A stretch of 17,898 nucleotides of DNA, taken from positions 1 through 17,898 of the forward strand of contig NW_021824599.1 in assembly GCF_006345805.1 (NCBI RefSeq), in the 5' to 3' direction. Below, piece by piece: positions 296-17,898 of the stretch (the stretch's first letter is position 1; the number at the start of each line of letters is the position of its first letter). The stretch is from Octopus sinensis. Its lineage: Eukaryota. Position numbers and translations under genes: made by a program. Below the pieces are notes generated by a model, which saw only the letters and a list, made by a program, of their open reading frames with translations, was not told the DNA's origin and searched no databases.

Positions 296-692
296 GAAGG
301 CGGCGAGCTGGCAGAAGCGTTAGCACGCCGGGCGAAATGCTTAGCGTTATTTCGTCTGCCGCTACGTTCTGAGTTCAAATTCCGCCGAGGTCGACTTTGC
401 CTTTCATCCTTTCGGGGTCGATTAAATACGTACCACTGGAGTCGATGTAATCGACTTAATCCGTTTGTCTGTCCTTGTTTGTCCTCTCTATGTTTAGCCC
501 CTTGTGGGTAGTAAAGAAATAGGTATTTCGTTTGCCATTATGTTCTGAGTTCAAATTCCGACGAGGTCGACTTATTCGGGGTCGATAAATTAAGTACCAG
601 TTACGCACTGGGGTCGATGTAATCGACTTAATACGTTTGTCTGTCCTTGGTTGTTCCCTATGTGTGTAGCCCCTTGTGGGCAGTAAAGAAAG
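296..692 (+). mobile_element. tRNA-derived SINE (family A), dimeric copy with 14-bp target-site duplication
   Basis: A-box-like TGGCAGAAGCG (309-319), B-box GTTCAAATTCC (373-383, again 549-559), central GTCGACTTTGCCTTTCATCCTTTCGGGGTCGAT domain and A-rich end. Body duplicated (~346-521, ~522-692). AGGTTTGTTTTATC at both 282-295 and 693-706. Related copies at 11764-11985 and 12370-12490. Confidence 0.9.
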
Positions 693-1129
693 AGGTTTGT
701 TTTATCAGGGATGGTATGATTTGAAAGAAAAAAAAAAGAACAAACTAACGCAAACGCTTTTACTTAGTTGTTCGACCGAAAAAAAAAATAAAAGCAAATT
801 TTCCCCAAATCACTCTGCATCGTTTTAAATAAGGTATATAAAAAAAAACTATAAATAATGTAGTCGCAGCTTGCCCCTCAATATAAAGGATATTTAGATC
901 TAGAATGTCTTTGATAATTGGTCCTATTCGATAAGAGCTGATTGATACAAGAAAAAAAAAACCCCAACAGCCACAAAACTTCGGTAACATCATCAAACTT
1001 GGAGTTATGTATTTCTTTAATATTATACCCCAATGACATTAAAAAATCATTTATTTCTCATAAATTTCTTTCATACAATATACATATATAAATATGAAAA
1101 ATATTTAATCCCTACTCCGACAAAATATA

Positions 1130-1802: not shown

Positions 1803-2096
1803 ACACACACACACATATATATATTATATATATATATATATATACATATAAATTTCGATGAGATGTATCAAAATCTTTTCTAAATAAATCTTTTAAAGTA
1901 TATGTATGTATGTATTTATGGTATATATGTATGTATCTATCTGTCTTTGTCTGTGTGTGTGTGAGTTTGTGCATGTGTGTGCGCGTGTGTGTGTGAGTTT
2001 GTGCGTGTGTACGTGTGAGTTTGTGCGTGTGTACATGTGCGTGTGTGTCTGTGTGTGTGTGTGTGTATGTGCGTGTGTGTGTGTATGTGTGTGCAT
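1706..2096. repeat. Compound microsatellite (CA)n-(TA)n ... (TATG)n-(TG)n
   Basis: Directly visible; source of the CVCV/HTHT ORFs. Confidence 0.95.
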
Positions 2097-2210
2097 GTCA
2101 GCGACATGAAGGTCAGAAAAGTAACCTTAAACAAATGTTAATATTAGAAAATCTTGAACTGTGAAAACAATTTGTTTGGATGTGAGCATTTCCAGGTGTA
2201 TCTTCAATAT

Positions 2211-2355
2211 ACGGGTTACACAGTCTCCATTTAACAAAGTCTTTTTACAGCTCGAAGCTATGATAGAAGACTATTTGTGGAAGTTGCCTCTAAGCTAGAT
2301 AGAACCGAGACGCTCCTAGTTATGAAGTCGTTTCCTTAACCACAACAGCATGCCT
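2211..2355 (-). mobile_element. Highly degenerate head/core fragment of SINE family B
   Basis: CGAAGCTATGATAGAAGAC...GAACCGAGAC...CTTAACCACAACAGC is collinear with 16710-16805 (CGAAGCTATAGCAGAAGAC...GAACCCGGAAC...CTTACCACACAGC). Confidence 0.5.
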
Positions 2356-2491
2356 TATAGGTGGATAAACTGATATATAGGTAGATGGATATTCCGATAG
2401 ATGGATTCATAAAAACTAGATAAGTTTCTTTATTGGCCACACAGAGATGCACACAGATGGGACAAATTACAAGGTAAAGCTTTGTGGGATG

Positions 2492-2805
2492 AAAAAAAAA
2501 AAAAAAAAAAAAACACAAAAAACAAAAGAAACAAAAGAAAGTGGCGTAGGTTTTCGATCAAAAGGGATCGTAAAAGGGGAAAAAGAAAAAAAAGGAAAAA
2601 GGAAAATAAAAATAAAAAAGGAAGAAAAAGAGGAAAAAAGGGGGGGGAGAGAAAAAAAGATAGATAGATAGACAGACAGATAGATAGATAAATAGATAGA
2701 TAGATAAGTAGATTGATAGACAGATAGATAAATAGATAGATATATAGATAGATAGACATACAGACAGATAAATAAATCGATAGATAGACAGACAGACATA
2801 TAGAC

Positions 2806-2885
<80 letters not shown>

Positions 2886-3012
2886 TAATAATAGATGGTA
2901 TATAGACAGATAGATAGACAGACAGATAAACAGACAGACTGATAGATAGATAAATAGATAGGTAGACAGACAGACAGGCAGGCAGACAGACAGACAGACA
3001 GATAGATAGACA
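2492..3012. repeat. Poly-A/purine tract followed by compound (GATA)n/(GACA)n/(TA)n microsatellite
   Basis: Directly visible. Confidence 0.95.
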
Positions 3013-3717
3013 CACCACAGAGAAATTTTAATCTATTGACAACGAGGATATAGGAAAGAATTATATGGCCATTCTATTTTTGAAATATGAAAACCAGATT
3101 CCCGAAAAAGTCCAATATAATTATTTAATTTTTGCAGATTTTGTTTTTCTTCTATCAATGCTCTTTGAACTTTGCTGATATTCATCTACCATATTTCTTA
3201 AACAGAAACGTCATAACACCTGTTATGACTGAAATACAGTAAAAACATAGAGTAGAAGATAAGTATTTATGAATGACGTGGGATGTTGGATTATTTATGT
3301 AGAAAGGATTCAGATCATAAAGGCCTGGGTTTTTATTTGCCTCGGAGCATATATAAAGGATTAGAAAATAAAATGAAATTTGTGTCGCTACCACCTGACA
3401 TTTGATTAATATAAAGCATGCATTCTGCCGATGCAAGGAAACAATAAACACTGTGTCACATTCGCTAACTTTTGCTATAAGAATTAACTGCAACGTTCGT
3501 TGTTTATAATTTTTGTTTAATTCTATTTTCAGTAGACTTAGAAAAATATGTGGATTTCCTTTTTTTTTTAAGTCTTTCTTTTTTATTATTATTTTTTTGG
3601 CTGTTGTCAATGGCAGAACCATCTTTCCATGTTTACTTTAAAATTAGCATCGAATTTCGGTTTGAGTTTTAGGATGCGAATTTATTTCAAATGCACAACA
3701 ATACACTCTAGGCACAG

Positions 3718-3803
3718 GTATACGCATATACATATGTATGTATGCGTGTGTATATATATAATAATATATATATATATATATATATAAATGTGTGTGTGTT
3801 GTG

Positions 3804-3836
<33 letters not shown>

Positions 3837-4012
3837 TGTGTGTCTGTGTCTGTGTGTCTGTGTCTGTGTTTGTGTCTGTGTGTGTATTTATATATACATA
3901 AATGAGATTGTGTGTACATGTTTGTGTTTGGATATACACACATATATATATACACACACACACACATAATTTACATGCATATAAACATTTTTGCATACAT
4001 ACATACATACAC
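3718..4012. repeat. Compound (TA)n/(TG)n/(TGTGTC)n/(CA)n/(CATA)n microsatellite
   Basis: Directly visible. Confidence 0.95.
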
Positions 4013-4019
4013 AAATACC

Positions 4020-4471
4020 TAACACTTGAGATGACTAACCAACGTTCCGCATGTCCGCCTGATAGTGATGTTTATCACTAGTTCTTGTTCTTCTTAGGTA
4101 GTTCTTCTTAGGAGAAGAGTACTCTGAAGTAAAATCTTTGGATCATTCGTTCAGCTCCCGATTGTTCCAACCAATCCTAAGCCACCTATAGAAGAACCTA
4201 ATGTACTTTGAAAATGAGTGAAGTTCTGTACTCATTTCTCTCATTATAATCAATTCCAGGCACAGGAACATGTTGGACTGTTATAATGCCCCCTTCGGCA
4301 TACAGTACACTTAGTAAAATCAGTAAAGGCACGACTATCTCTGACCGCCTACTACGTATACCTCTTTACTTGTAGTGACTAGGTTATTTCATTCGACACG
4401 TGTAGTTCTGTACTCCCTTCTCTCATTATAATCAATTCCAGGCACAGGAACATTATTAATATTCCCCTACA
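4020..4471 (-). repeat. Probable 3' LTR of the Gypsy element (left boundary uncertain)
   Basis: On the minus strand a polypurine tract AAAAGGGGGA (4484-4475) follows the integrase C-terminus and is followed after 3 nt by TGTAG (4471-4467), a typical LTR start. No partner 5' LTR seen. Confidence 0.5.
4222..4453. repeat. 50-bp direct repeat (4222-4271 and 4404-4453) within the putative LTR
   Basis: AGTTCTGTACTC(AT/CC)TTCTCTCATTATAATCAATTCCAGGCACAGGAACAT; 48/50 identical, offset 182 bp. Confidence 0.92.
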
Positions 4472-4536
4472 ATATCCCCCTTTTAAGTTTTTCTTAGGAA
4501 GTGTAATTTTATTTAACAATATTTTTTTTATTCACC

Positions 4537-5395
4537 TCAACTCCCCTTTTTGAATTTTGTTTTCGTACAATTCAGTATTTTTTGCACTGAACATTTATTT
4601 TCAAGAACTCTGTCTTTTCTTTTCCTCTCACCTATACGCCTGGGTTCCATCATCTGCAGTGGCGTTGGTACTTGGAACGTATCGTGGAACCATTCCATCA
4701 GCTCCTCCAGTTTCTTTGGTTCGCTTTCCACAAATCTCTCTTTCAGTTGGTTCCTGTGTCTCTTTTGTATGCATTTTCTGTTTTTTACCAATACATCATT
4801 TTACCTATGCATTTGGTAATTACGCCATCTTCCCAACTCTATTTTCTATTCTTGTATGCCCTCATATTCACCTTTTCACCAACTTTAAAGAATCTTGCTA
4901 TGTCTTCCCCGGCACTTTTTTCTTTTCTTGCCAACATCAGATCCGCTGGTGATTTACCTGCTGGTGTATTCGAATTTGGTGTCATACGATACATTCTTAA
5001 AAATTGTTGACTTCTATATTCGATTTTCTTGGGGTCCTCTTGAAGGTATCGACAAAAGGTTCTGCCTGTGCATTAGATCTGGGTTGGTATGGCGTAGTAG
5101 TTACATGTTCTACCGCAAACGCTTCACAAAATTTTAAAAATTCGCTAGACACAAATTGCGTTTCATTGTCAGAGACTATTTTGTCTGGGATGTCAAATCT
5201 TGCAAACAGTTCGTGTAAAAAAATCACAACTAAGGAGGTTGGTGTTTTACACTCGTAAATTTCTGGCTATTCCGAGCAACTATCAACTACCACTAAGCAG
5301 TAAGAACCATTTAAAGGACCAACGAAATCGATGTCTAGTCTCGACCACGGAACATCTACTTCTGAATAACGCTTACTTTTTATCGTGGGCAATTT
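4537..5395 (-). pseudogene. Gypsy DDE integrase core and C-terminal region, disrupted
   Basis: PWSRLDIDFVGPLNGSYCLVVVDSCSE*PEIY...FARFDIPDKIVSDNETQFVSSEF...TTPYQPRSNAQAEPFVDTFKR (D-D-E present), then FLRMYRMTPNSNTPAGKSPADLM and RHRNQLKER. Confidence 0.9.
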
Positions 5396-5434
5396 TCTAT
5401 TTCGTTTTGGCTTACATACATGTGTCCTACTCTG

Positions 5435-5878
5435 TTATACTGCAAATTTTTGTTTCAGTTCCTCAGTCGCATTCGAACCTTTGACGAAACCGACTATATT
5501 TCCACACAAAACACTTATGGACGTATCCCACAATTTGAATAGATTAAGTGAATCTTTTAATACATATATATTTGCCTTTTTCGTTAGACCTCGAAATGCT
5601 ACATTACATACGAATTCACCGAAAAAGTGTAGTCTTTTTCCCGCAACACCTGTGCTACTTTTTCCGACATATTTCCACGATTTTTCGTTTATAATGGTGA
5701 TATCACTACCAGTGTCCAACTGCATTTTAACACTTGTATTCTTGATTTTCACCTTCACAAATTTCCTCATCGTTATATTACCAACTTCTTGCGGTGGCAT
5801 ACTATTTATTCTTTTTCCTTTGGTCTGACGTTTTGTCACCTTCGTTCTACAGTGCGTCTCAGTCGAACCACAACATTC
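5435..5878 (-). pseudogene. Gag zinc-knuckle remnant plus retropepsin-type aspartic protease
   Basis: ORF 5435-5839 contains VKMQLDTGSDITII (DTG active site). Its in-frame upstream extension reads ECCGSTETHCRTK. Confidence 0.85.
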
Positions 5879-6596
5879 TACTACTTAGTAAATGAAGATC
5901 TTCTAATGTTCAAGTTGCGACACGTTAAGTCTTGTTTTATTTATTTTAGCTAACTTGATATTATCATACTGATAACAATGATATATAATACTGCTTATCC
6001 TGATTAACAATCTTGAATTTACTCAATTCATATCTAATCTCTTCCTTCTTAACATATCAAAAAACCGCCGAGAAAGAGAGGGAAAATATTTTGTAGATTT
6101 GCTGTGAAACCAGCTCTTGATATCGATTTATCAAGCTTTCATATATCAGAGCCTCTGGATGTGACAAGGTTATTGTAAACCCATCTCTGGGTGACTACAT
6201 TCGCCGCATCTATTTTGTACAAATGAATATTTAATGAACTTTTAATTATACAATCGACTTTATTTCAAATTAAATTTGCATAAAGTCAATGATAAAGTAA
6301 CTTCATCTTCTATAAATAAGGGAGCATCATCATCGATACACAACCAACTATCTCTTTCATTGCTAGAGCTGCACAATAAGTCAGAGTGAACGTCATTGTT
6401 CTGATACAAATAATAGATAATCCTTCACATTGTTTTCGTATTTCTCTTTCCTAACGTAGATTGGCGTCACTGAAAGGAGCGACTGTATTACGAGGTGCCG
6501 AAATTACTGTGATCTCTTCTCGATAGATGATGAAGGCGAACGAGTAGTACGTAAAATATGGAATATATGTGCGTGTACTGTGTGCGCTTGCGCTAA

Positions 6597-6882
<286 letters not shown>

Positions 6883-6926
6883 ACAAAGTGAAGTTGTAAG
6901 GTACCGCACGAGTGGAATTATATATG

Positions 6927-7066
6927 AAAGGTTTGAAAATGCAATTTTAAAAGATGTTTATTCACTTGACCGGTTTCACTTTTTTAGAAAAAGATTGTCA
7001 AAAGTAACATGTAAAAGCTTCGTTGTGTTAGGTACTGGTTGTCACAAAATATTACAATGCATATAC
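6927..7066 (-). mobile_element. Penelope-like pLTR fragment (left arm of inverted repeat with ~8980-9118)
   Basis: Reverse complement aligns with 8980-9118 over ~140 bp, e.g. AAGGTTTGAAAATGCAATTTTAAAAGATGTTTATT. Contains a hammerhead motif. Confidence 0.75.
6962..7007 (-). ncRNA. Minimal type-I hammerhead ribozyme, U3-A8 core variant, GUC site
   Basis: Minus strand reads TTACTT-TTGACAA-TCTTTTTCTAAAAAAGT-GAAA-CCGG-TC-AAGTGA. Stem I UUACUU/AAGUGA, stem II CUUUUU/AAAAAG, palindromic stem III ACCGGU. Confidence 0.7.
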
Positions 7067-7074
7067 CACCACCA

Positions 7075-8412
7075 TCAGCAGCACTCCCAATGGAGAACAT
7101 CAACAACCTTGGAATCAAAGAAGCAATAGCTGCAGGATTGTATTAAAACCCTCATAAACGACCAAAGAGCTGCAGAGACAGCCTGGGCTATTAAGAACAT
7201 CAAGAATAATTCTAAGATTTTTTTTATTCCTTTGCAAAAACACATAGGACCACTGTTTCCTCTATCGGCCCACTGGCTGACGGAAACGGCATCCTTCACA
7301 GTGAGGCCAAAGACATGGCTGAGATTCTGCAAAGTCAATACTGCTCTGTTTTCAATGACCCTGATTCAGTTGACTCAAGCAGCTTTGCTTCTTCAAATCC
7401 TCAGCATGTATTTCCGATATAAACTTCGATGCTACTGACATCCTAGCAGCAATAAAAGAAATCAAACCTGATTCAGCAGTGGGTCCAGACAGAAGGCAGA
7501 CAGCAACTTGTAGTTCCTCTTGCAAATTTCTGAAGGAAATCCCTGGATGCCGGTTTGATCCCTCAAAACCTTCTCTCCTAGTCAGTTGTTCCTATCTTTA
7601 AAAAAGGAATAAATCGCACCCTGTAAATTACCCTCCAATCTCACCTCACATATCATCAAAACATTTAAGAGAGTGTTGAGATCAAGAATAACAGCCTTCC
7701 TAGAGCAAAATCATCTTCTAAATTGCAACTGGCATGGCTTTCGTGGTGGTAGGACTGTCTAACACAGTTCCTTCACCACTTTGATGACATTTTAAACGCC
7801 GATGTCATATACCTTGATTTCAGCAAGGCCTTTGACAGAGTCGACTTCAAATACTGCTGCCCATTGTGGTCCCCCTAGAAAACAACTAGACTTAATGAGG
7901 ATCGAAGCGCCACAAAGATCAATCACCAAAAAAAAAAAAAAAACAATAAATGGCACGACGGGACTTGATTATTGGGCTCGACTTAAACAGCTGAAGCTCT
8001 ATTCTCTGCTCTATTCTCTGCAAAAATATTAAAATGTTAAAAATATTCCATCAATATTATCCAAATGATATTGGGGTTACGTTTACAATTCACCCAAGAC
8101 TAGATCCCCTTGCAATGCGTCTCCTACAAAGGTCGAGATCACATCACATAAAAACATTGCGATACAATTTCTTCACTGGAAATGGTCCTGTTCTTTTCAA
8201 TGTTATTCCGAAAGAAATTAAACTAGAGAAAGACCCCACAACTTTCAAACGGTACCTGGACAAATTCCTCCAGGAAATACCGTGTAAACCAACTACACCT
8301 GGATACAACGCTCTGCTTGAGTGGTCCATCGTGTTGCAAAATAATTAATTTAAAGACTTTTCCAGATAGTGCTATTGGCCTGGGCAGATAATGGCTGAAA
8401 CCAATCTAAGTT
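7075..8412 (+). mobile_element. CR1/L2-group LINE remnant (ORF2 RT N-terminal part fused to C-terminal domain, plus 3' UTR)
   Basis: Translates in pieces to KEIKPDSAVGPD, SVVPIFKKG, PVNYPPIS, HGFRGGR, DVIYLDFSKAFDRVD, YCCPLWSP, GLDYWARLKQLKLYSL and LFNVIPKEIK..TFKRYLDKFLQEIP. Many frameshifts and stops; YxDD region absent. Confidence 0.88.
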
Positions 8413-8505
8413 ATCCATCCACCCATCCATCCATTCATCAATCCATCCATCCATTCATCCATCCATCCATCCATCCATCCATCCATCCATCCATCCATCC
8501 ATCCA
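8413..8505. repeat. (ATCC)n microsatellite at LINE 3' end
   Basis: Directly visible. Confidence 0.95.
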
Positions 8506-8506
8506 T

Positions 8507-8700
8507 AAAGGATCCCTCTGTCCGGCATTCGCCATGATAGATCGCTAACCATTACACATTCTTTATTTTCTCTCCCTGTTTCTTTCTGTGTTCCTTTCTG
8601 TGGAAGAGCGTAGGCTCGAAACGTTAAAGACTTTTTCATTTCATTAAACTAATACATCTGTTTGTTGTCTACACTACCTGTCTTCGTCTTTTGTTTTTTT
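8507..8700 (+). mobile_element. Short Penelope pLTR-like repeat with hammerhead-like motif
   Basis: Pyrimidine-rich leader, hammerhead fold at 8594-8629. Its 3' part ACCTGTCTTCGTCTTTTGTT (8676-8695) recurs exactly at 17648-17667. Architecture parallels 16210-16420. Confidence 0.65.
8594..8629 (+). ncRNA. Minimal type-I hammerhead-like motif with A6U substitution
   Basis: CTTT-CTGTGGA-A-GAGC gtag GCTC-GAAA-CG-TT-AAAG. Stem I CUUU/AAAG, stem II 4 bp, ACGU palindrome, GUU site. Confidence 0.6.
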
Positions 8701-8715
8701 CTCCCTTTTCTCGCC

Positions 8716-9118
8716 TTTTATGTTCTTAACATGCTCTTGTCACCAAAAAATGTATATATATGTATTGTAGTACTCTGTGACAACCAATATTCTGTGCGTG
8801 TTTGAACATACAGTTACAATACCAATATCCCACTGAACTTTTTAATAATTCCTTCTGGAAACTATCTTTAACATGTTCTTGAGAATGATTATTTATGTTG
8901 AAATCTTTTGTGCCCAATATTTTAAGGAACTTGTTAAACTTTTTTATGTCCTTAACATGTCCTTGTTACCAAAGACTGTATATATGTAATGTAGCATTTT
9001 GTAACAACCAATAATTAACGCAACCAAACTTTTACATGTTACTTTTGACAATCTTTTTCCAAAGAGTGAAACCGGTAAAGTAAATAAACATCTTTTAAAA
9101 TTGCATTTTCAAACCTTC
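8716..9118 (+). mobile_element. Penelope-like pLTR region (right arm of inverted repeat) with internal partial tandem duplication
   Basis: 8980-9118 is the inverted copy of 6927-7066, and 8716-8790 resembles 8941-9015. Hammerhead near the 3' end; followed by (TA)n. Confidence 0.72.
9039..9083 (+). ncRNA. Minimal type-I hammerhead ribozyme, U3-A8 core variant, GUA site
   Basis: TTACTT-TTGACAA-TCTTTTTCCAAAGAGT-GAAA-CCGG-TA-AAGTAA. Perfect 6-bp stem I, stem II CUUUU/AAGAG, ACCGGU palindrome. Confidence 0.72.
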
Positions 9119-9123
9119 TTTCG

Positions 9124-9182
9124 TATATATATATATATAGATATATATATATAGATATATATATATATATATACATGTATAC
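9124..9182. repeat. (TA)n microsatellite
   Basis: Directly visible. Confidence 0.9.
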
Positions 9183-11763: not shown

Positions 11764-11984
11764 GGTTTTTTTCTAGCATAGGCACAAGGCTTGAAATTTT
11801 GAGGGAAGGGAGGTAATCGGTTACATCGACACCAGTGTTTGACTGTTACTTTATTTCATCGACCCCTGAAAGGGTGAAAGGCAAAGTCGTCCTCGCTCGA
11901 ATTTGAATTCAGAACGCGAAGACGGACGAAAAGCCGCTATGCACTTTGCCCGGCATGCTAACGATTCTGCTAAGCTCACCGCCT

Positions 11985-11985
<1 letters not shown>
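11764..11985 (-). mobile_element. tRNA-derived SINE family A, full-length monomer with alternative 3' tail
   Basis: Reverse complement AAGGCGGTGAGCTTAGCAGAATCGTTAGCATGCCGGGC...GTTCTGAATTCAAATTC...GACTTTGCCTTTCACCCTTTCAGGGGTCGAT aligns with 297-455. Confidence 0.88.
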
Positions 11986-12369: not shown

Positions 12370-12490
12370 CATTTCTACTTTAAAAACAAGGTCTAAAGTT
12401 TTGGGGAGAGGAAAGTCGTTTACATCGATTCTTAGTGCTCAACTGATACTTATTTTATCGACCTCAAAATGAAGAAAGGCAAAAGCGACT
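12370..12490 (-). mobile_element. 5'-truncated, diverged SINE family A copy
   Basis: Reverse complement GTCGCTTTTGCCTTTC...GAGGTCGATAAAATAAGTATCAGTTGAGCACT...TCGATGTAAACGACT; tail of the same type as 11764-11985. Confidence 0.75.
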
Positions 12491-16211: not shown

Positions 16212-16420
16212 GTGACCGCGTCTGTATCGTTGGGGATTTTCTTTCCTCCGTCTTCCCTTCCTTGGGCCTTTCCTTTTTCTATGTTTCTGACGAAGAGCTT
16301 CACTCGAAACGTTAAATCCTCCTTTTTTCTTTCCTTCCTGAGCGTCCAATAACACCATACTTGTTCCACGTCCTCACGTTGTTGTGTTTTCTCTTTGTGC
16401 TTTCATGTTTGGATTAACTC
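16210..16420 (+). mobile_element. Short Penelope pLTR-like repeat carrying a hammerhead
   Basis: Starts at (TA)n; pyrimidine-rich leader, hammerhead at 16283-16317, T-rich 3' end. Same layout as 8507-8700. Confidence 0.65.
16283..16317 (+). ncRNA. Minimal type-I hammerhead ribozyme with canonical core
   Basis: GTTT-CTGACGA-A-GAG cttca CTC-GAAA-CG-TT-AAAT. CUGANGA and GAAA intact, G10.1-C11.1 pair, ACGU palindromic stem III, GUU site, stem I GUUU/AAAU. Confidence 0.78.
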
Positions 16421-16421
16421 T

Positions 16422-16812
16422 ATTTACTCTTTCTCTTTCACTTGTTCCAGTCATTTGACTGCGGCCATGCTGGAGCACCTACCTTTAGTCGAGCAAATGG
16501 ACCCCAGGACTTATTCTTTGTAAGCCCAGTACTTATTCTATTTTTGGTCTCTTTTTGCAGAACCGCTAAGTTACGGGAATGTAAACACACCACCATCGGT
16601 TGTCAAGCGATGTCGGGGTGACAAACACAGATACACAAGCATATACACACACATACATATACACATATGTATACATATATACGACAGGATTCTTTCAGTT
16701 TGGTCGGACCGAAGCTATAGCAGAAGACACTTGGCCAAGGTGCCACGCAGTGGGAGTGAACCCGGAACGATGTGGTTGGTAAGCAAGCTACTTACCACAC
16801 AGCCACACCTGC
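16422..16812 (-). mobile_element. tRNA-derived CORE-type SINE (family B) with internal (TG/TA)n microsatellite
   Basis: Minus strand: A box TGGCTGTGTGG (16805-16795), B box GGTTCACTCCC (16762-16752), CORE-like CCTTGGCCAAGTGTCTT, internal microsatellite 16625-16680, AG-rich tail. The 3' half is repeated at 17722-17898. Confidence 0.88.
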
Positions 16813-17636: not shown

Positions 17637-17640
17637 AACT

Positions 17641-17693
17641 CTGCACCACCTGTCTTCGTCTTTTGTTGTTTTTTTTTTGTGAATTCTCCCCCT
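17641..17693 (+). mobile_element. 3' stub of the 8507-8700 pLTR-like repeat
   Basis: 20-bp exact match of 17648-17667 to 8676-8695. Confidence 0.55.
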
Positions 17694-17721
17694 ATATTTA
17701 TGCATACATATTTATACATAT

Positions 17722-17898
17722 TCCTTTATTCTTTTGTTTCAGCCATTTGACTGGAGCCAAGCTGGAGCACCGCCTTTAGTCGAGGAAATCTTATTCTTTG
17801 TAAGCCTAGTACTTATTCTATCGGTCTCTTATGCCGAACCGCTACGTTACGGGGACGTAAACACGCCAGCATCAGTTGTCAAGCGATGTTAGGTGAGG
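17722..17898 (-). mobile_element. SINE family B, 3' half (runs off window edge)
   Basis: Aligns with 16430-16620 (CATTTGACTG, GCTGGAGCACC, CTTATTCTTTGTAAGCC, GAACCGCTA.GTTACGGG, GTTGTCAAGCGATGT). Confidence 0.88.

What the first reader, a model, noticed from the sequence alone, without database searches (positions are those of the whole stretch)
6920..9125. ~2.2-kb foldback-like composite bounded by inverted, outward-facing hammerhead repeats
Seen: ~140-bp inverted arms (6927-7066 and 8980-9118), each with a hammerhead near its outer end and each abutting TA repeats. They enclose a CR1-type LINE remnant, (ATCC)n and a third hammerhead repeat. Known: Penelope-like elements carry hammerheads in pLTRs and often form inverted pLTR junctions. 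Inference: an inverted-pLTR insertion later invaded by the LINE, or a ribozyme-terminated cargo-carrying unit in which a transcript of either strand ends in a self-cleaving motif. The arms could also form dsRNA.
Basis: partly seen in the sequence, partly recalled or inferred. Interest (0 to 1): 0.7.

Follow-up and report, generated by a model that had tools for sequence, protein, structure and literature searches.

The report
Two unrelated Penelope stubs facing outward
The two mirror-image ends are real, but they are tail stubs of two different subfamilies of a common Penelope-type jumping gene that likely landed separately on either side of older repeat debris, so this is most likely ordinary transposon clutter and not a ribozyme-capped cargo unit.

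Summary
The inverted arms are real (87% over 150 nt), and each carries a minimal hammerhead motif with the published U3-A8 core swap. They are the 3' ends (pLTRs) of a Penelope-like element (PLE) with thousands of copies, linked here to RT/GIY-YIG ORFs. The family makes tail-out inverted pairs routinely: 11 among 100 listed motif hits, against 0.02 expected.

This pair is not one of them. Its arms belong to two subfamilies (15 diagnostic columns; tree support 100/99). All 27 other pairs examined are same-subfamily, and 25 of them are filled with PLE sequence only. The enclosed LINE remnant (about 8% from its family majority) and third repeat (3.7%, end of another PLE family) are older than the arms (1.1% and 1.5%), so the LINE did not invade later. 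No donor copy of the cargo exists in the assembly.

Best reading: separate insertions at two TA runs. Uniform placement predicts about 0.4-5 such mixed pairs genome-wide. An empty-site test in public runs was inconclusive. The scan has reported inverted PLE stubs before, in this genome and others. Ordinary.

The parts
6871..6882 (.). (TA)n run at the end of a 280-bp mixed microsatellite; landing site of the left PLE stub
   Evidence: sequence
6884..7066 (-). 5'-truncated 3' end (pLTR) of a Penelope-like element, subfamily L, with the optional ~40-nt tail (6884-6925)
   Evidence: best other copies 94-97%; L state at the diagnostic columns and tree 100/99; 2 of 182 sites differ from the family majority
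6962..7007 (-). minimal type-I hammerhead motif, U3-A8 core, palindromic ACCGGU helix III, predicted cut after GUC at 6968
   Evidence: descriptor scan, positions, pair counts; activity untested
7068..8412 (+). old 5'-truncated LINE remnant (RT and 3' end with TCTAAGTTA-type tail), ~600-bp internal deletion near 7845-7850, many stops and frameshifts
   Evidence: 107 of 1330 sites differ from the family majority; deletion junction unique in the assembly
8413..8506 (.). (ATCC)n microsatellite starting at the LINE tail; not seen after the 17 other LINE 3' ends shown
8511..8706 (+). 3' end of a second, distant and very abundant (~25 per Mb) PLE family, with a hammerhead-like motif at 8594-8629 (core CUGUGGA, A6U)
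   Evidence: best copies 88-93%; 10 hits in 400 kb of random DNA; PLE RT/EN remnants upstream in 5 of 24 copies; 7 of 190 sites differ from majority
8707..8715 (.). short junction filler resembling a duplicate of the preceding TTTTCTCCC, where the third repeat's TA run would normally begin
   Evidence: sequence; origin inferred
8716..9123 (+). 5'-truncated 3' end (pLTR) of the same PLE family, subfamily R, no tail
   Evidence: best copies 98-99% over the last 183 bp and 90-98% over the 415-bp match; R state at the diagnostic columns; 6 of 408 sites differ from majority; body linked to GIY-YIG coding DNA in L157
9039..9083 (+). minimal type-I hammerhead motif, U3-A8 core, predicted cut after GUA at 9077
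   Evidence: activity untested
9124..9181 (.). (TA)n run, landing site of the right PLE stub

Best explanation
The two arms are the 3' ends of two subfamilies of one Penelope-like retroelement family, and they were likely inserted in separate events at two TA runs flanking an older LINE remnant and an older stub of another Penelope family, so the foldback look is likely a coincidence of position. SHOWN: subfamily split, relative divergence, linkage of the family to RT/GIY-YIG ORFs, and a TA run at almost every 3' end. INFERRED order: LINE first (~8%), then the third repeat (~3.7%), then the two arms (~1-1.5%, order between them unresolved). INFERRED mechanism, from published PLE work: the GIY-YIG endonuclease nicks AT-rich DNA, reverse transcription starts at one of two sites near the RNA end (giving tail or no tail), stops early, and joins its 5' end to nearby DNA. 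The right stub landed exactly where the third repeat's TA run would begin. The hammerheads are passengers of the pLTR and are predicted to be poor cutters here, having no same-strand partner.
For:: of 17 columns where the majority states differ, 15 separate the window's arms into R and L (column 48 left arm has a private base, column 151 is an end gap, column 56 is shared); the split branch has support 100/99; arm-arm identity is 88.4% against means of 96.7% and 95.2% within subfamilies; 27 of 27 other tail-out pairs (26 loci) are same-subfamily, and 25 of 27 are >=89% covered by PLE body, against 25% for this pair; divergence from family majority is 1.1%, 1.5%, 3.7% and 6.9-9.6% for left arm, right arm, third repeat and LINE; the left arm does not resume beyond the LINE; none of 45 rows roughly scored as solo has (TA)4 at the 5' junction, so joining arbitrary DNA, as here, is normal; no second copy of the cargo or flank; error-free pieces of this LINE remnant occur in runs labelled as three organisms; 0.4-5 mixed pairs within 2.2 kb are expected genome-wide for 2,000-7,000 arms.
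Against: The tail is on one side only, as in 23 of 27 genuine inverted units. Only 10 of 29 top R copies carry it, so this is roughly 2:1 in favour of a single event. The two arms are of indistinguishable age (2/182 vs 6/408). The chance estimate depends on an uncertain copy number: 0.06 pairs if only exact-motif copies are counted, and about 0.1% for any one copy. I found no other mixed pair to show that it happens. No empty allele was demonstrated. The divergence figures use copies chosen as best matches to the window.
Confidence: 0.85

Rival explanations
1. One integration event used two different subfamily RNAs, priming on opposite strands at two TA runs 2.2 kb apart and so framing resident DNA without moving it.
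For: Tail-out geometry and one-sided tail match genuine units; the arms are of similar age; a PLE protein cleaves and extends both target strands in vitro (PMC11167929, passages).
Against: 0 of 27 other pairs mix subfamilies. The inner DNA is retained, so each 5' end was resolved separately, as in solo copies. Chance suffices.
Confidence: 0.07
2. A cargo-carrying unit: pLTR ends mobilised a transcript holding the LINE remnant and third repeat, as reported for host DNA framed by Penelope pLTRs in Adineta.
For: Precedent exists (PMC3846280, passages on an NRPS gene framed by pLTRs and on captured spacers). Older cargo inside younger ends is what capture would give.
Against: No donor: the best other LINE copy is 83% (90% over 411 bp) among 40 scored of 3153 candidates, and the deletion junction occurs once at <=2 mismatches. 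The ends are from two subfamilies. No second copy of the composite, and the right flank is single-copy.
Confidence: 0.04
3. One old inverted-pLTR insertion, later invaded by the LINE and third repeat, with one arm afterwards replaced by gene conversion from another subfamily.
For: Outward geometry and one-sided tail.
Against: Both arms are younger than the inserts, so both would need conversion. The left arm does not continue past the inserts, and no target-site duplication flanks the LINE.
Confidence: 0.02
4. An assembly chimera on a small unplaced contig.
For: The window is a whole 17.9-kb contig. No contig in four public runs covered 8708-8713.
Against: The tool warns that holes prove nothing, and even the best run held only 40% of the LINE words. 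The junctions look like ordinary PLE 5' junctions.
Confidence: 0.02

Closest known systems
Endonuclease-bearing Penelope-like elements with inverted 5'-truncated pLTR and one-sided 30-40-bp tail (PMC8557442 and PMC3846280, passages read)
   Same: 5' truncation, tail-out (head-to-head) inverted copies, optional ~40-nt tail, microsatellite (TA) bias, RT plus C-terminal GIY-YIG with a Cys linker, hammerhead in the pLTR. The family as a whole fits.
   Different: In this window the two ends are from different subfamilies and enclose only foreign, older repeats, so the locus imitates the unit without being one.
Minimal PLE hammerheads (min-HHR), including the U3-A8 variant and opposite-strand pairs 100-700 bp apart in Schistosoma (PMC4209133, abstract, results and discussion read)
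   Same: Type I, palindromic minimal helix III that needs a dimer, U3-A8 swap, an unpaired base 5' of helix II, dispersed truncated copies.
   Different: Helix II starts with U.U (or one extra 3' base) instead of the usual G10.1-C11.1 in 96 of 106 motif copies. The third repeat has A6U. I did not find these two variants in the passages read; supplements and the 2017 variant paper were not seen.
Penelope-mediated capture of host DNA in Adineta vaga (PMC3846280, passages)
   Same: Non-PLE DNA between pLTR sequences.
   Different: There the gene lies between direct pLTRs of one family, with a TSD and known paralogues. Here there are two subfamilies, no donor and no TSD.
Foldback/MITE DNA transposons (recalled)
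   Same: Long inverted ends next to TA.
   Different: Most copies are solo, variably 5'-truncated and linked to an RT, not a transposase.

Membership tests
EN+ Penelope-like element (arms as pLTR ends) | pLTR flanks an ORF with PLE-type RT and C-terminal GIY-YIG | tested here: met
   Arm module 91-98% identical to repeats flanking 634-776-aa frames; RVT_1 E~1e-7. An R body 96% identical to the right arm carries coding DNA 82% identical to the endonuclease part. Pfam GIY-YIG was only weak (E 0.049, on a more distant relative); motifs read by eye. No ORF was found within 1.5 kb of L copies.
EN+ Penelope-like element (arms as pLTR ends) | fixed 3' end, variable 5' truncation, optional 30-40-bp tail | tested here: met
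   (tail in 10 of 29 R copies)
EN+ Penelope-like element (arms as pLTR ends) | direct and inverted pLTR arrangements in the family | tested here: met
   direct in L183, inverted in L182, L185, L186, L188, L189; 11 tail-out and 0 tail-in pairs within 3 kb among 100 listed hits
Neptune/Nematis clades | CX2-5CxxC linker between RT and endonuclease | tested here: met
   CX4CxxC in the translations of L182-L186; definition from PMC8557442 passages
Neptune/Nematis clades | RT phylogeny with named reference elements | not testable with these tools
   no reference PLE set held
Single inverted-pLTR insertion unit (this locus) | both arms from the same element RNA (same subfamily) | tested here: not met
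   27 of 27 other pairs meet it
Single inverted-pLTR insertion unit (this locus) | interior made of the element's own body | tested here: not met
   25% coverage, 1650 bp foreign; no PLE ORF remnant in the window
Single inverted-pLTR insertion unit (this locus) | tail at one end only | tested here: met
   left end only
Single inverted-pLTR insertion unit (this locus) | target-site duplication or joint presence/absence of both arms | tested here: inconclusive
   TA runs mask a TSD; two searches showed neither junction
Minimal type-I hammerhead ribozyme | core with 3-8 pair, G12-A13-A14-A15.1, U16.1-H17, helix I | tested here: met
   U3-A8 in 106 of 106; H17 is A 53, C 36, U 15, G 2; helix I is paired in 104-106 of 106. 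The copies were found by anchors on this motif, so conservation is partly by construction; only one-sided changes were seen, no double compensatory ones.
Minimal type-I hammerhead ribozyme | G10.1-C11.1 pair closing helix II | tested here: not met
   U.U in 96 of 106; no Rfam hit
Minimal type-I hammerhead ribozyme | self-cleavage | not testable with these tools
   needs an in vitro assay
CR1-group LINE | APE endonuclease plus RT, short tandem 3' tail | tested here: met
   sister copy L192: RVT_1 E 6.6e-19, Exo_endo_phos_2 only E 0.045; 8-9-nt tandem tails
CR1-group LINE | RT phylogeny placing it in CR1 rather than L2 or a neighbouring clade | not tested
   label rests on recalled motifs

The most novel reading that the evidence does not exclude
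A single Penelope integration used RNAs of two subfamilies, priming on opposite strands at TA runs 2.2 kb apart and framing resident DNA between outward-facing hammerheads. This would show that inverted PLE units are built from two separate RNAs and can enclose, and potentially mobilise, host DNA.
Probability: 0.08. Interest if true: 0.6.

Novelty: new member of a known kind. Interest (0 to 1): 0.13.

Why it matters
As best explained it matters little: it is a worked example of TA-targeting retroelements piling up and imitating a foldback element, and a caution that arm identity must be checked against subfamily structure. The family data are more useful than the locus: 27 inverted units, always tail-out and same-subfamily, with the tail on exactly one side in 23, give ready material for testing how PLEs build inverted insertions. 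If the novel case held, it would bear on the open question of whether inverted units come from one self-primed template or from two RNAs.

Tried and rejected
Rfam: no hammerhead hit in the window or in 6880-9125, taken as a limit of the models for minimal variants. DNA transposon or MITE with long TIRs: rejected (solo, truncated copies, RT linkage). Search for a second haplotype or empty site in the assembly: the right flank is single-copy. Public runs: no RNA holder listed, which is no evidence on expression. Laying contigs on 6884-8412 and 8630-8790 showed neither junction. One contig in run X1 reads as the third repeat's end followed directly by TA at 8706, like an empty site, but depth there (about 650) shows many other copies end that way, so it is not locus-specific. 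No run covered 8708-8713; a hole proves nothing. Monomer folding of the motifs does not give the hammerhead fold as the minimum-energy structure. The palindrome slices were mis-cut and were redone. The solo/inverted scoring is rough: its 45 rows include the window's two arms and at least three inverted units. The 2017 paper on PLE hammerhead variants is not held, so whether the U.U and A6U variants are described there is open. Supplements of PMC4209133 and PMC8557442 were not read and may list these families. Look-ups of earlier scan notes by sequence and by place gave nothing.

Full report
Observation. The window is the whole contig G000:C1070 of a 2.72-Gb genome, rich in microsatellites. Self-BLAST confirms inverted arms at 6919-7065 and 8981-9129, 130/150 identical. 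Rfam finds no ribozyme. A minimal hammerhead descriptor finds four motifs in the window: one in each arm, one at 8594 and one at 16283; it finds 7 in 400 kb of random DNA from the genome. The right one runs 8716-9123 and ends at a TA run. The left one runs 6884-7066 on the minus strand and includes a ~40-nt extension before its TA run.

What the arms are. Each arm has many close relatives: 1769 and 3079 first-look candidates, of which 40 each were scored, and 780 exact matches of a 28-nt motif. One insertion occurred in 40 random 10-kb stretches. Copies share a fixed 3' end at TA and are variably truncated at the other end. The extension is present in 10 of 29 right-type copies. Longer copies lead into endonuclease and RT coding DNA. 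A body 96% identical to the right arm carries sequence 82% identical to the C-terminal part of a 685-aa frame. Frames of 634-776 aa are flanked by the arm module at 91-98%, in direct or inverted orientation. Those frames hit RVT_1 and show, by eye, a CX4CxxC linker and GIY-YIG-type motifs; Pfam GIY-YIG was only marginal. This matches endonuclease-bearing Penelope-like elements of the Neptune/Nematis type, with inverted truncated copies, a one-sided 30-40-bp tail and microsatellite bias (PMC8557442, 12 passages; PMC3846280, 12 passages).

Inverted pairs are a family habit. Among the first 100 listed motif hits there are 11 tail-out pairs within 3 kb and no tail-in pair, against 0.02 expected. 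I tabulated 27 other tail-out pairs from 26 loci: 14 beside top hits, 11 fetched from the pair lists from random DNA and 1 from adjacent top hits. All 27 have both arms of one subfamily. 25 are at least 89% covered by PLE body from other loci. One exception is filled by its own RT/EN sequence. The other, 7.5 kb wide with LINE DNA inside, is part of a larger inverted segmental duplication. The tail is on exactly one side in 23, both sides in 1 and neither in 3.

This pair is different. An alignment of 75 arms splits into two subfamilies with support 100/99, and the window's arms fall on opposite sides. They carry the opposite states at 15 of 17 differing columns and are 88.4% alike, against means of 96.7% and 95.2% within subfamilies. 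The interior is 1650 bp of non-family DNA. It holds a LINE remnant with a ~600-bp deletion, at best 83% like other copies over long matches (RT confirmed on a sister copy; the CR1 label is recalled). Next comes (ATCC)n, starting at the LINE tail. Last is the 3' end of another TA-abutting family present at about 25 per Mb, with PLE coding remnants upstream in 5 of 24 copies. Differences from family majority are 2/182 (left arm), 6/408 (right arm), 7/190 (third repeat) and 107/1330 (LINE), so the inserts are older than the arms. The left arm does not resume after the LINE, and its 5' end meets the LINE's 5' end over about 4 shared bases. The right stub starts where the third repeat's TA run normally begins. 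A 5' junction on non-TA DNA is usual: 0 of 45 roughly scored rows have TA there. There is no donor: the LINE deletion junction occurs once and the right flank once. Error-free pieces of this LINE copy occur in runs labelled as three organisms, but neither arm junction was displayed.

Chance. Uniform placement gives 0.06 mixed tail-out pairs within 2.2 kb from exact-motif copies alone, and 0.4-5 for 2,000-7,000 arms. Shared TA targeting would raise this (inference). One such locus in the genome is unremarkable. Against this reading, the tail is one-sided, the arms are of similar age, and no single-arm allele was shown.

The hammerheads. In 106 motif copies (49 distinct; found by anchors on the motif, duplicates of places dropped), U3-A8 is constant, helix I is paired in 104-106, H17 is A, C or U in 104, and helix II begins with U.U in 96. 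Only one-sided changes occur. U3-A8 cores, opposite-strand pairs of minimal hammerheads, inactivity as monomers and low activity as dimers are published (PMC4209133, parts 1-2 of 4 read). In a Poseidon element, hammerhead cleavage needs the protein and is not required for insertion in vitro, and the tail reflects two RT start sites (PMC11167929, passages and second half of the main text). Here each strand has one arm-type motif. Its ACCGGU palindrome pairs with itself (-8.3 kcal/mol) but not with the third repeat's ACGU (-0.9), and in a read-through RNA the arms would pair (about -170 kcal/mol) and mask the motif. A unit ending in an active ribozyme on either strand is therefore unlikely (inference); dsRNA is possible if the locus is transcribed, which was not testable.

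Other reading. A review (PMC6765202, passages) states that PLEs tend to insert into or next to existing PLE copies. PMC13282606 (passages) and bioRxiv 10.64898/2026.07.22.740005 (passages) added only context. Three literature searches were run; I make no claim that the U.U or A6U variants are unpublished, since the 2017 variant paper and all supplements were unseen. Earlier scan notes report inverted PLE stubs in this genome and others; they concern true single-family hairpins, unlike this mixed pair.

Verdict. The parts are real and of a known kind; the composite is most likely not a unit. Interest 0.13.

Noticed in passing
window 16283-16320, + strand: A fourth hammerhead motif with a canonical core (CUGACGA, GAAACGUU), starting shortly after a TA run, in a repeat unlike the other three; probably the end of a further PLE family.
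   Followed up: no
window 17640-17695: A short 3' stub of the same family as the third repeat, ending in CTCCCCC then TA.
   Followed up: partly
window 297-696, 11817-11985, 12413-12489: A very abundant repeat (40-77 hits per 100-bp bin in 400 kb of random DNA): two tandem ~176-bp units at 348-696 and inverted copies near 11.8 and 12.4 kb.
   Followed up: no
window 16442-16800 and 17734-17889: Further very abundant SINE-like repeats, two related copies 81% alike.
   Followed up: no
L183:116-1558: A 481-residue open frame upstream of the RT frame and overlapping the 5' pLTR and tail of a full-length copy, with no Pfam hit at threshold; either the N-terminal part of a broken single ORF or a separate ORF.
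   Followed up: partly
arm-type motif genome-wide; third-repeat family: Two atypical hammerhead variants kept across copies: U.U at the base of helix II in three subfamilies that differ at H17 (A, C, U), and A6U in 28 of 29 third-family motifs. Activity unknown.
   Followed up: partly
L022 (G000:C8:8522337-8525518), L033, L152: Stacked arrays of three to five pLTR stubs in alternating or tandem orientation at single TA sites.
   Followed up: partly
L005-L008, L159, L160 (G000:C20, 32.59-32.98 Mb): Four near-identical copies of one PLE insertion with its flanks, partly inverted: segmental duplication or assembly redundancy near the chromosome end.
   Followed up: partly
L136:2141-2525: In random DNA, another outward-facing pair of U3-A8 hammerhead motifs from a different family.
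   Followed up: no
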